Origin: a virus
Lineage: Duplodnaviria > Heunggongvirae > Uroviricota > Caudoviricetes
Reading direction: 5' to 3' (one strand)
Length of the DNA stretch: 5,370 bases
IMG/VR virus record: IMGVR_UViG_2703718775_000030
Below the pieces are notes generated by a model. The model saw nothing but the letters and a program-made list of their open reading frames with translations, did no database searches and was not told the DNA's origin. Below, in pieces: positions 1,980 to 2,743 of the stretch (its first letter is position 1; every line of letters starts with the position of its first letter). A program made the translations under genes and the position numbers.

Positions 1980-2193
1980 AACCCCCCCCATTTTCACAAT
2001 CAGCAACAAGAATATTTTTAGCGTCATTCAGCGACCGCGTTGCGATGTATCGGATACATTCCAGGGCGAACTGTGTCCGGTCTTTCTGTTCTTCTCCCTG
2101 CGCAAGCTCTGCAGTGCATTCAATATCGATAAGCGCGTGCATCAGCGTAGTGAGCGCGGCGGCTGCTGCGTCCGGTGTGGTTTTATTGCACAT
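1972..2193 (-). CDS. Hypothetical small protein A (73 aa, MCNKTTPDAAAAALTTLMHALIDIE...)
   Basis: ATG at 2191..2193 is preceded by AGGAGG with a 6-nt spacer. It overlaps the end of the upstream E/D reading frame by 11 nt. The ORF-track start at 2235 lacks an SD. Confidence 0.65.
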   Translation of the reverse strand: MCNKTTPDAAAAALTTLMHALIDIECTAELAQGEEQKDRTQFALECIRYIATRSLNDAKNILVADCENGGGYA

Positions 2194-2374
2194 GGCACAC
2201 CTCCTGACGAATACGGGCGGCGAATACAGCAACACAACCGGACGGGCAACGGCTACGCGCTTCGCGTTCCGTCCAGGCGGTTACGTGGATGATTTGATGT
2301 TCTGACGCGCCAAAGATGATAAAGCGCCAGAGAAAGGCGGTTTGAGAATGTACAAGGGTAGGGATAGTAGCCAT
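2183..2374 (-). CDS. Hypothetical protein D (63 aa, MATIPTLVHSQTAFLWRF...): in-frame internal start inside E with its own strong SD, possible separate short product
   Basis: ATG at 2372..2374 is preceded by AGGAGG with an 8-nt spacer. Its N-terminus repeats the E N-terminal motif IPxLVHxQTAFxWRF, with synonymous codon differences between the two copies. Confidence 0.5.
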   Translation of the reverse strand: MATIPTLVHSQTAFLWRFIIFGASEHQIIHVTAWTEREARSRCPSGCVAVFAARIRQEVCHVQ

Positions 2375-2743
2375 GTTGGCAGCCTCCTCAGTGTGGTTAA
2401 GATAACCGCCACCGGAAACGCCAATTTCGCTGGTGGCGGACTGTACAGGGTTGGCGTAACCGGACACTGAAGAAACCGGCGCGGATTGCTCCGCCCCCGT
2501 ACAGCCCACCATTGATAAGGTGTGACTATGCGGCACAAAAAAACACGCGGGGCGCGTGTTATGCGCTTCAGTTTTGCCCAGGACGCCAATCCCGGCACCC
2601 GTTTTATGAGGTGCGCGGGAATCATAGCTATTTTCGACACTGGCGATCAACTGGTTTTTTTCTCCGATATTCAGGGCCAGAAAACGCCACACAAAGGCCG
2701 TTTGTGTGTGTACAAGGTGTGGTATATGATTTACGGCAACCAT
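2183..2743 (-). CDS. Hypothetical protein E (186 aa, MVAVNHIPHLVHTQTAFVWRF...), contains an internal duplicated module
   Basis: ATG at 2741..2743 is preceded by AGGAG with a 5-nt spacer. The frame runs without a stop to TAA at 2183..2185. The N-terminal ~50 aa are paralogous to the C-terminal module that begins at the internal ATG 2374. Confidence 0.6.
   Translation of the reverse strand: MVAVNHIPHLVHTQTAFVWRFLALNIGEKNQLIASVENSYDSRAPHKTGAGIGVLGKTEAHNTRPACFFVPHSHTLSMVGCTGAEQSAPVSSVSGYANPVQSATSEIGVSGGGYLNHTEEAANMATIPTLVHSQTAFLWRFIIFGASEHQIIHVTAWTEREARSRCPSGCVAVFAARIRQEVCHVQ

What the first reader, a model, noticed from the sequence alone, without database searches (positions are those of the whole stretch)
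2183..2743. Internally duplicated small protein with a nested in-frame start (E/D paralogs)
The N-terminus of E (MVAVNHIPHLVHTQTAFVWRF) and the internal start D (MATIPTLVHSQTAFLWRF) share the motif IPxLVHxQTAFxWRF. Codon-by-codon, the copies differ mostly at synonymous third positions (ATC/ATA, CCT/CCA, CAT/CAC, ACC/ACG, CGC/CGT), the signature of selection on the protein. Both ATGs have strong, well-spaced SD sequences (AGGAG, AGGAGG). D is in frame with E and has no stop before it, so the locus could produce a 186-aa two-module protein plus a 63-aa single-module protein. I do not recognise the motif from any characterised family.
Basis: seen in the sequence. Interest (0 to 1): 0.75.

Follow-up and report, generated by a model that had tools for sequence, protein, structure and literature searches.

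The report
RNA immunity cassette inside icd gene
The apparent "duplicated small protein" is a phage-satellite cell-division-inhibitor gene (Icd/Kil family) split by a 360-bp insert that carries a promoter and two known regulatory RNAs, which gives the nested-gene control region already described for satellite phage P4 rather than a new two-module protein.

Summary
A 46-nt direct repeat (76% identical, spacing exactly 360 nt) encodes IPxLVHxQTAFxWRF twice in one 186-codon frame, and both ATGs have good SD sequences. D (2374-2183) is a standard Icd/Kil-family gene (NCBIfam NF033153), the same family as P1 Icd and P4 Kil. The middle of E is not a protein module. It holds an internal sigma-70 promoter, an isrK/seqA-type leader RNA with terminator (Rfam, 66 bits) and a C4/CI antisense RNA (77.6 bits). 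The C4 loops are complementary to D's SD and to two other target sites. Copy 1 is a 28-codon remnant of a second icd allele. Sister satellites carry that allele intact and have no RNAs. AlphaFold folds only the C-terminal Icd domain. The layout is colinear with P4 eta/kil/CI. The frame through the RNAs is kept open in about 111 of 118 distinct loci, and spacer lengths differ by multiples of three. That argues for selection on read-through translation (eta-like anti-termination), not on a duplicated protein. This is a new member of a known kind. Side observation: the same frame is stop-free for 409 codons, from the alpA-like stop onward, running antisense through the repressor gene.

The parts
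2183..2374 (-). D: 63-aa Icd/Kil-family gene. It is the first gene of the early/replication operon, and its stop overlaps the next ORF's ATG at 2196.
   Evidence: NF033153 57.1 bits against a cutoff of 25. The same family is hit by P4 Kil (76 bits) and P1-type Icd (50 bits). Third-codon-position excess 11/12/24. AF2 gives a beta-beta-alpha-beta fold with pLDDT about 80.
2383..2394 (-). SD of D (GAGGAGG 2389-2383) overlapping the a2-type target ACACTGAGGA (2394-2385) of the C4 loop
   Evidence: Inverted repeat I9, 2385-2394 / 2464-2473, 90% complementary. The site co-varies with the C4 loop in other elements: CACTG/CAGTG versus TAACG/CGTTA.
2412..2424 (-). b2/seqC-type target of C4, just downstream of the C4 RNA
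   Evidence: Inverted repeat I6, 2412-2424 / 2451-2463, 85% complementary. Co-variation TTGGCG/CGCCAA versus TTAGCC/GGCTAA.
2429..2516 (-). C4/CI-type antisense immunity RNA
   Evidence: Rfam RF01695, 77.6 bits against a gathering score of 45, full length. MFE -46.9 kcal/mol, z = -4.1, matched by 0 of 200 shuffles.
2538..2614 (-). isrK/seqA-type leader RNA. It carries the b1 target (2583-2592) and an intrinsic terminator (2560-2542 plus a T-run).
   Evidence: Rfam RF01394, 66 bits against a gathering score of 50. Weak c4-a1b1 match at 2575-2627. Terminator scan. Inverted repeat I10, 2448-2457 / 2583-2592.
2621..2650 (-). Internal PLE-like sigma-70 promoter (TTGATC N18 TATGAT) whose predicted start coincides with the isrK-like RNA
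   Evidence: Promoter scan, 9/12 matches. P4 has TTGCCT N18 TATAGT at the equivalent place. The 'KNQLIA' and 'GYDSRAP' residues conserved in Ash-family proteins are the translations of these two hexamers.
2660..2743 (-). Copy 1: a 28-codon 5' remnant of a second icd allele ('A-type', MVAVNHIPHLVHTQTAFVWRFLAL..GE), with SD AGGAG at 2753-2749. It supplies the start of the read-through ORF E.
   Evidence: It is nearly identical in DNA to the 5' end of intact 65-66-aa icd genes in sister satellites that lack the RNAs. No family hit on its own. Predicted unfolded.
2183..2743 (-). E: 186-codon eta-like read-through ORF spanning copy 1, the promoter, both RNAs and D
   Evidence: End-to-end match to phrog_29966. 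775 homologous long 'Ash/Icd-like' ORFs. The frame is conserved across loci.
2852..2880 (-). Upstream promoter (TTGACA N17 TACTAT) flanked by two ATGGTAATTACC palindromic operators (2832-2843, 2864-2875)
   Evidence: Promoter scan, 10/12 matches. Repeats D2/I3.
2874..3047 (+). Divergent 57-aa Arc-like ribbon-helix-helix protein, the presumed repressor acting at the operators
   Evidence: phrog_228 Arc-like repressor, E = 1.5e-6. NCBIfam YlcI_YnfO_N, E = 0.0014.
2183..3412 (-). 409-codon stop-free frame that contains E and D. Its first ATG lies 14 nt after the stop of the frameshifted alpA-like gene.
   Evidence: Shuffle controls. Same-strand open frames across the alpA-icd interval in 80 loci.

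Best explanation
The locus is the P4-type immunity and early-leader region of an E. coli phage satellite. The element has int, a frameshifted alpA, an Arc-like repressor, icd and a RepA helicase. In the complete genome it sits next to capsid and small-terminase genes at a tRNA-Pro.

D is the satellite's Icd/Kil gene and the first gene of the early operon. A 360-bp cassette sits inside what was a single icd gene. The cassette holds an internal constitutive promoter, an isrK/seqA-type leader RNA with terminator, a C4/CI antisense RNA, the C4 target sites, and the SD, ATG and first ~25 codons of a 'B-type' icd. The first 28 codons of the resident 'A-type' icd are left upstream, and that is the duplicated motif. 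The junctions are in frame, so the A-type start now heads a 186-codon ORF (E) that reads through the promoter and both RNAs into D. This is the same layout as P4 eta reading through PLE, seqA and cI into kil.

Inferred mechanism, by analogy with P4, P1 and Gifsy-1:
- In the repressed state the internal promoter makes short transcripts that end at the isrK terminator or are processed to C4.
- C4 pairs with the leader and with D's SD, which blocks D translation and so blocks read-through into the replication genes.
- When the upstream operator-controlled promoter (or read-through from alpA) fires, ribosomes start at ATG 2743 or further upstream, outside C4's reach. They translate across the RNA region, which prevents terminator and target folding and Rho loading, so the operon is expressed.
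- The two icd-derived repeats also act as homology arms, through which the cassette can be lost (crossover between the repeats) or gained (double crossover with a plain icd gene).

Shown here: identity of the parts, complementarity and co-variation, colinearity with P4, frame conservation, and the mosaic structure. Inferred: promoter use, the termination logic, and the direction of the original event.
For: RNAs: C4 77.6 bits and isrK 66 bits. The C4 fold has z = -4.1.

Targets: C4 is complementary to 2385-2394 (D's SD), 2412-2424 and 2583-2592. All of these co-vary with C4 in sister elements, giving distinct specificity types.

Promoters and terminator.

Colinearity with P4: ORF ATG 8812, then promoter 8728-8699, isrK-like 8692-8615, terminator, C4/CI 8507-8420, and kil as the last 65 codons of the 214-codon ORF.

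Family: D, P4 Kil and P1-type Icd all pass NF033153. D and Kil share phrog_1743.

Split gene: sister satellites carry one intact gene, MVAVNHIPHLVHTQTAFVWRFLALSAGESQIIHVTAWTEREA..., with flanks nearly identical to the window and no Rfam hit. Among 106 classified IMG/VR loci there were 74 single A-type, 11 two-copy (always spaced 360 nt), 18 cassettes with other upstream sequences, and 3 A/B hybrid singles, which are the expected products of repeat recombination.

Frame conservation: the C4-containing frame is open at least 194 nt upstream and at least 277 nt downstream in about 111 of 118 distinct C4 loci, while the other two frames close quickly. The distance from isrK start to C4 start takes 13 lengths, and 10 of them are congruent mod 3, covering 95 of 99 unique sequences. 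At least four different upstream sequences join the cassette at the same point just 5' of the -35 hexamer, all in frame.

Not a protein module: there is no third-position bias in the RNA segment, against 11/12/24 in D. AF2 gives pLDDT below 50 for aa 1-131.

Literature: P4 eta/kil/CI logic, and C4 plus isrK hits in Gram-negative PICIs (PMC10111431). Translation of the region downstream of IsrK, coupled to the next gene, is shown in Gifsy-1 (PMC4825925).
Against: - There are no expression data. Promoters and the terminator are consensus matches only.
- BLASTP finds no direct D-Kil alignment, so homology rests on shared profiles.
The protein-database view of in-frame junctions is biased towards open frames.
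- Low pLDDT could partly reflect a shallow, closely related alignment.
- Whether the cassette was inserted or the single genes arose by deletion is unresolved. Hybrids prove only that deletion happens.
- Copy 1 is well conserved, so a peptide-level role cannot be excluded.
- The alpA-like gene is frameshifted in this element, so the element may be partly decayed.
Confidence: 0.78

Rival explanations
1. One reading: E is a genuine two-module protein made by internal duplication of an Icd-like unit, co-expressed with a single-module D. Both modules are under selection for a protein function.
For: The repeat and its synonymous-difference pattern are real. Both starts have an SD. The 186-aa ORF is conserved and has its own PHROG.
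Against: Copy 1 is 28 residues of a ~63-residue fold and matches no family alone. Residues 1-131 are predicted disordered. The 'linker' is a promoter plus two Rfam RNAs and shows no coding-type substitution pattern. In sister elements the upstream remnant varies from about 21 to about 60 codons and is of different icd subtypes, which looks like erosion or mosaicism rather than a conserved domain. P4 eta has no such N-terminus.
Confidence: 0.05
2. E is not translated at all. The open frame is a passive by-product of strongly conserved, G+C-rich RNA genes, and copy 1 is a dead remnant. Only D and the RNAs matter.
For: The RNA segment shows no codon-position bias. The E product is predicted unfolded. 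The isrK terminator lies inside E.
Against: The variable-length, poorly conserved spacer between the isrK terminator and C4 changes in steps of three. Independent upstream junctions are all in frame. Translation of P4 eta, and of the equivalent region in Gifsy-1, has been shown experimentally and matters for read-through (PMC10111431; PMC4825925).
Confidence: 0.12
3. Copy 1 encodes a functional short peptide, or a cis-acting RNA element such as the terminator-like hairpin at 2708-2688. Either would regulate the operon independently of the eta-like read-through, for example as a leader-peptide attenuator.
For: The terminator-like hairpin CACACAAACGGCCTTTGTGTG plus GCGTTTTCTG lies inside the copy-1 motif and is absent from copy 2. 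Copy 1 is highly conserved among two-copy loci.
Against: The hairpin is weak: -8.6 kcal/mol, z = -1.7, and 13 of 200 shuffles fold as well. It is equally present in intact single icd genes, where it is ordinary coding sequence. The conservation of copy 1 is explained by recent shared ancestry with those genes.
Confidence: 0.05

Closest known systems
Satellite phage P4 immunity region: eta/kil nested genes, PLE promoter, seqA, CI RNA, seqC (Forti et al. 1999, J Bacteriol 181:5225, cited from PMC10111431 and from my own recollection; the paper itself was not available)
   Same: The order of parts is the same and on one strand. The long-ORF start lies upstream of an internal promoter. Then come an isrK/seqA-type leader with terminator, a C4/CI RNA, and a ~65-aa Icd/Kil-family gene that forms the in-frame end of the long ORF. 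The long frame begins next to the alpA homologue in both.
   Different: P4 eta has no Icd-like N-terminus. The P4 spacer between terminator and CI is 107 nt, against 21 nt here. Here an operator-controlled divergent promoter and an Arc-like repressor lie between alpA and the cassette. Downstream is a RepA-type helicase rather than the P4 alpha primase. The cassette is polymorphic (present or absent) among near-identical elements.
Phage P1/P7 immI operon (c4 - icd - ant)
   Same: A C4 antisense RNA made from the same transcript as its targets. The a/b target sites are duplicated upstream and at the icd RBS. Icd starts MATIPT...F.WRF.
   Different: There is no antirepressor gene downstream here (Pfam, NCBIfam and PHROGs give no Ant, KilA or Bro hit for the next ORFs). 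In the P1-like phage examined, the open frame upstream of icd ends about 53 nt before C4, so there is no eta-like start upstream of the promoter.
Salmonella Gifsy-1 isrK-orf45-anrP-isrJ locus (PMC4825925)
   Same: An IsrK-type sRNA with its own promoter and a leaky terminator. A translated small ORF downstream is coupled to the next gene. RNA-RNA pairing controls the RBS.
   Different: In Gifsy-1 the short RNA activates translation, and the downstream gene is an antirepressor. Neither a nested long ORF nor an Icd duplication was described there.
Sister E. coli satellites with a single intact icd gene (e.g. NZ_CP018243, NZ_CM142811, NZ_CP116123)
   Same: The upstream leader, SD and first 28 codons are near-identical (the operator/promoter region matches only in NZ_CP018243), as are the last ~36 codons and the downstream genes.
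   Different: They lack the 360-bp promoter/isrK/C4/B-type-start cassette and have no Rfam hit (tested for NZ_CP018243 only).

Membership tests
Icd/Kil family (NCBIfam NF033153 phage_ICD_like) | Profile score above the curated cutoff of 25 bits | tested here: met
   D scores 57.1 bits and E 60.3 bits (aa 137-180). P4 Kil scores 76.1 and P1-type Icd 49.8 against the same model.
Icd/Kil family (NCBIfam NF033153 phage_ICD_like) | Small (60-75 aa) protein encoded directly downstream of a C4/CI RNA, with its RBS complementary to that RNA | tested here: met
   63 aa. C4 ends 54 nt before the ATG. The SD overlaps the 10-nt complement of the C4 loop.
Icd/Kil family (NCBIfam NF033153 phage_ICD_like) | Inhibits cell division or kills the cell when expressed | not testable with these tools
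   Needs an expression experiment.
P4-type RNA immunity with nested eta/kil genes | C4/CI RNA and seqA/isrK-type leader RNA present, in that order, on the coding strand | tested here: met
   RF01394 at 2614-2538 (66 bits) and RF01695 at 2516-2429 (77.6 bits). P4 gives the same two hits in the same order.
P4-type RNA immunity with nested eta/kil genes | Immunity RNA complementary to one site upstream and one site downstream of itself | tested here: met
   Inverted repeats I10 (upstream), I6 and I9 (downstream). Co-variation across specificity types.
P4-type RNA immunity with nested eta/kil genes | Long ORF that starts upstream of the internal promoter, reads through the RNA genes, and ends as the kil/icd gene | tested here: met
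   E runs 2743..2183 and the internal promoter is at 2650-2621. The frame is conserved in about 111 of 118 loci, and the spacer changes in multiples of 3.
P4-type RNA immunity with nested eta/kil genes | Internal promoter is constitutive; the upstream promoter is regulated and immunity-insensitive | tested here: inconclusive
   Only consensus matches and flanking operators were found. No complementarity was seen between C4 and the SD of E. Activity was not measured.
P4-type RNA immunity with nested eta/kil genes | Translation of the long ORF prevents premature (Rho-dependent) termination | not testable with these tools
   Needs reporter fusions and Rho inhibition.
Pfam PF10554 Phage_ASH | Profile score above the gathering threshold (26 bits) | tested here: met
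   63.3 bits for E aa 40-133. The matched residues are the translation of the isrK, C4 and RBS DNA, so membership says nothing about a folded protein domain.
   Copy 1 is 28 residues with no family hit and pLDDT below 50. Intact versions of copy 1's gene exist elsewhere as separate 65-aa proteins.
P1-type immI operon (c4-icd-ant) | Antirepressor gene translationally coupled downstream of icd | tested here: not met
   The next ORFs (2196-1972, 1976-1758, 1756-1532) have no Ant, KilA-N or Bro hits, only PHROGs of unknown function. They are followed by a DUF4222 gene and a RepA helicase.

The most novel reading that the evidence does not exclude
There are three nested in-frame starts: ATG 3412, 14 nt after the alpA-like stop; ATG 2743, after the operator-controlled promoter; and ATG 2374, after the internal promoter and C4. 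The reading is that each start is matched to a different transcription start. On this view the whole 409-codon frame is kept open as a 'ribosome track' that shields read-through transcripts from termination while running antisense through the repressor gene. The icd-derived repeats would then make the RNA-immunity cassette a plug-in module that satellites gain, lose and swap by homologous recombination with any icd gene, which would switch immunity specificity.
Probability: 0.3. Interest if true: 0.6.

Novelty: new member of a known kind. Interest (0 to 1): 0.33.

Why it matters
The result removes a false lead. There is no new duplicated protein family here. The 'Ash family' residues conserved in hundreds of database proteins are translations of a promoter and two regulatory RNAs.

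It also extends the P4 eta/kil/CI logic to a common group of E. coli O26/O157-type satellites. About 144 of 5,426 complete genomes carry this exact two-copy form. RNA-immunity cassettes of several specificity types sit inside icd genes and come and go between near-identical elements.

If read-through translation is confirmed, these loci would be a clear case where selection maintains an open reading frame for the act of translation rather than for its product.

Tried and rejected
- BLASTP of D against P4 Kil gave no alignment. Homology had to be shown through shared profiles instead.
- Foldseek of the D model against the PDB gave nothing below E = 0.7, so no solved relative is known.
- RNAduplex with the whole C4 RNA was dominated by self-complementarity and was uninformative. 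The inverted-repeat list was used instead.
- My first codon-position analysis was off by one base and included non-homologous rows. One search is the corrected version.
- Single-linkage clustering of the upstream regions lumped nearly all loci together, so it could not give independent family counts.
- The 5'-UTR hairpin at 2797-2766 is not thermodynamically unusual (z = +0.37 for the stretch folded).
- Forti et al. 1999 could not be read.
- I considered a tandem-duplication origin of the whole arrangement and rejected it. The upstream icd remnant is absent from P4, from P1-like phages and from the lambdoid loci sampled.
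Full report
**Context.** The window is part of an E. coli phage satellite. Its genes are an integrase (5370-4129, -), a frameshifted AlpA-like gene (about 3632-3427, -), a divergent Arc-like ribbon-helix-helix gene (2874-3047, +), the locus in question, several small ORFs, a DUF4222 gene (partly masked by the N-run at 1566-1584) and a RepA-family helicase (1398-1, -). In E. coli O26:H11 FWSEC0001 the same DNA (99.1% identical) lies between tRNA-Pro/yejM and a major capsid gene plus a small terminase gene. 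It is therefore a PICI-type, apparently capsid-encoding, satellite. There PGAP annotates D as 'host cell division inhibitor Icd-like protein'. It marks the upstream frame as two pseudogenes, 'ash family protein' and 'Icd-like protein'.

- The 186-codon ORF, the internal in-frame ATG and both SD sequences are as described.
- The repeat is 46 nt, 76% identical, and spaced exactly 360 nt.
- In the 15-codon core, pS = 0.66 and pN = 0.12.

**What lies between the two copies.** Rfam places two RNA genes on the coding strand inside E. One is an isrK-type RNA (2614-2538, 66 bits, gathering score 50) that ends in an intrinsic terminator. The other is a C4 antisense RNA (2516-2429, 77.6 bits, gathering score 45). 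There is also a weak match to the c4-a1b1 target family at 2627-2575.
- A sigma-70 consensus promoter (TTGATC N18 TATGAT, 2650-2621) sits so that transcription would start at the first base of the isrK match.
- A second, better promoter (TTGACA N17 TACTAT, 2880-2852) lies upstream of E's ATG, between two ATGGTAATTACC palindromes.
- C4 folds strongly (-46.9 kcal/mol, z = -4.1).
- The exposed segments of C4 are complementary to three sites: 2583-2592 in the leader RNA, 2412-2424 just after C4, and 2385-2394, which overlaps D's SD.
- In sister elements these four sequences change together. One pairing alternates between CGCCAA/TTGGCG and GGCTAA/TTAGCC, and the other between CAGTG/CACTG and CGTTA/TAACG. 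This is the signature of working, heteroimmune RNA-target sets.
- The Pfam Phage_ASH match covers E residues 40-133, which is exactly this DNA. The residues conserved across 'Ash' proteins, KNQLIA and GYDSRAP, are the translated -35 and -10 hexamers.

**What D is.** D passes NCBIfam NF033153 (57 bits). So do P4 Kil (76 bits), a P1-type Icd (50 bits; MATIPTPTHPEFIWRF...) and the intact sister gene (65 bits). D and Kil also share phrog_1743, although BLASTP alone does not align them. D shows a third-codon-position excess of variable sites (11/12/24), which the RNA segment lacks. AlphaFold gives D a beta-beta-alpha-beta fold (pLDDT about 80). The motif QTAFLWRFII forms its first strand. No solved structure resembles the model.

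**What copy 1 is.** Three related satellites have, at the same place and behind the same leader and SD, one intact 65-66-aa gene. Its sequence is MVAVNHIPHLVHTQTAFVWRFLALSAGESQIIHVTAWTEREAR.RCPSGCVAVFAA.IRQ..., and there are no Rfam hits. The DNA alignment shows that the window equals this gene plus about 360 extra bases after codon 28. Copy 1 is therefore the 5' remnant of a resident 'A-type' icd. Copy 2 is the 5' end of a 'B-type' icd that always travels with the cassette. The synonymous differences record divergence between two alleles that were each under purifying selection as whole genes.
- In a motif-based sample of IMG/VR, 106 loci could be classified:
  - 74 were single A-type genes.
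  - 11 had the two-copy form, always spaced 360 nt.
  - 18 had the cassette behind other upstream sequences.
  - 3 were single A/B hybrids (A-type up to WRF, B-type after it). These are the products expected from crossover between the repeats.
- In the protein database the upstream piece varies. It can be 28 codons of A-type, about 45 codons of a 'STAQPRVI' subtype, a nearly full Kil-like module, or a ~21-codon stub. All of these join the cassette at the same point just 5' of the -35 hexamer, and all are in frame.
- By itself copy 1 matches no family. In the model of E, residues 1-131 all have pLDDT below 50, while the Icd domain in the same run reaches 72-85.

**Comparison with P4.** P4 shows the same order on one strand:
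- ATG of a 214-codon ORF at 8812
- promoter at 8728-8699
- isrK-type match at 8692-8615, with a terminator
- C4 match (the CI RNA) at 8507-8420
- the last 65 codons of the ORF, which are Kil

PMC10111431 summarises the experimental work on P4 (Forti et al. 1999, which I could not open). Transcripts from the internal constitutive promoter are terminated through the CI/seqA interaction and yield CI. Kil is the truncated form. Full-length Eta is made only from an upstream promoter, is coupled to the alpA homologue, and its translation prevents termination. The same paper notes that the Rfam C4 and isrK models hit Gram-negative PICIs. In Gifsy-1, translation of the region after IsrK and its coupling to the next gene were shown directly (PMC4825925).

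**Is the read-through frame selected?**
- Among 118 distinct DNA regions recovered with a C4 sequence pattern, chosen without regard to reading frame, the frame equivalent to E is open at least 194 nt upstream and at least 277 nt downstream in about 111. The other two frames close within tens to about 200 nt.
- The distance from isrK start to C4 start takes 13 different values between 100 and 188 nt. Ten of them are congruent mod 3, and these cover 95 of 99 unique sequences.
- This argues for selection on translatability. The lack of codon-position bias and the unfolded prediction argue that the product itself is not what is selected.

**Mechanism.** The model is the one given under 'best explanation'. 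Identity of the parts, pairing, co-variation, colinearity and frame conservation are shown here. Promoter use, C4-dependent blocking of D's RBS, termination, and relief by translation from 2743 are inferred from P4, P1 and Gifsy-1.

**Beyond the finding.** The E frame is stop-free back to 3412, 409 codons in all. It begins 14 nt after the alpA-like stop. It runs antisense through the Arc-like gene and a 62-aa ORF, with the third codon positions of the two strands coinciding (and my own coordinate arithmetic).
- Shuffle controls give a probability of about 0.1 that the part opposite the two + strand genes is stop-free, and about 0.007 for the intergenic parts.
- In 80 distinct loci with a recognisable alpA, the longest same-strand open run covers a median 97% of the alpA-to-icd interval, and at least 80% in 51 of the 80. 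The second-best frame covers a median 23%. Where one frame does not span the interval, two long runs do.
- In 19 of the 20 long-open loci in which alpA was recognised with a single query, the first ATG lies 10-57 nt after the alpA stop.
- The upstream 223 residues match no Pfam or PHROG family.
- This looks like an extended version of the coupling between P4 eta and alpA. It is the most interesting open lead, but it is not proven.

**Verdict.** The locus is a new member of a known kind: P4-type RNA immunity with nested eta/kil-like genes. Its local peculiarity is that the cassette sits inside an icd gene, whose two halves now flank it as direct repeats.

Noticed in passing
window 2183-3412 (-): The E/D frame is stop-free for 409 codons. 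It starts 14 nt after the stop of the frameshifted alpA-like gene and runs antisense through the Arc-like repressor gene (2874-3047 +) and a 62-aa ORF (3090-3278 +). Shuffle probabilities of being stop-free are about 0.1 (opposite the + genes) and about 0.007 (intergenic parts). In 80 related loci one same-strand frame covers a median 97% of the alpA-icd interval. L130 has an 805-codon version that contains two tandem regulatory units.
   Followed up: partly
window 2429-2516 with 2385-2394, 2412-2424, 2583-2592; L138, L143, L147, L154, L224: The C4 loops and their three targets co-vary between elements: b' CGCCAA versus GGCTAA, and a' CAGTG versus CGTTA. The two positions occur in different combinations, which implies several heteroimmune specificity types among otherwise similar satellites.
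   Followed up: partly
L158 and L203 (IMG/VR loci): These are single icd genes whose N-terminus is A-type up to WRF and B-type afterwards (…TAFVWRFIAFGASDHQIIHV…), with no cassette. They are the products expected from recombination between the two repeat copies.
   Followed up: partly
window 2688-2708 (-): A terminator-like hairpin, CACACAAACGGCCTTTGTGTG followed by GCGTTTTCTG, lies inside the copy-1 motif and is absent from copy 2. It is weak (-8.6 kcal/mol, z = -1.7) and is also present in intact single icd genes.
   Followed up: partly
window 2766-2797 (-): A 5'-UTR hairpin, CGCCCCGCAGTGCTGGGAACACATACGGGGCG, lies just upstream of E's SD. It is conserved in sister loci, and both stems appear to co-vary there. 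It is not thermodynamically unusual.
   Followed up: partly
window 2832-2843 and 2864-2875: Two perfect ATGGTAATTACC palindromes bracket the divergent promoters: the (-) promoter at 2880-2852 and the (+) promoter at 2806-2833. They are probable operators for the Arc-like protein.
   Followed up: no
L147 3225-3429: One two-copy element carries a second C4 RNA and an a1b1 target set downstream of its icd gene, so it has two immunity cassettes in tandem.
   Followed up: no
window 1566-1584: A run of 19 N replaces about 199 bp present in the complete genome (5,550 bp there against 5,370 bp here). This interrupts the DUF4222 gene and the ORF at 1756-1532.
   Followed up: yes
window 3361-3400 (+): An intrinsic-terminator-like hairpin, GGCGGCTCCATATCGGGGCCGC plus TTTTTT, follows the + strand ORFs. 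Its antisense translation (KKAAPIWSRLSEQ) is the conserved N-terminus of the long minus-strand ORF in several loci.
   Followed up: no
window 2183-2196: D's stop (2185-2183) overlaps the ATG (2196-2194) of the next 74-aa ORF (phrog_5146 and phrog_2512, unknown function). This suggests translational coupling into the early operon.
   Followed up: no
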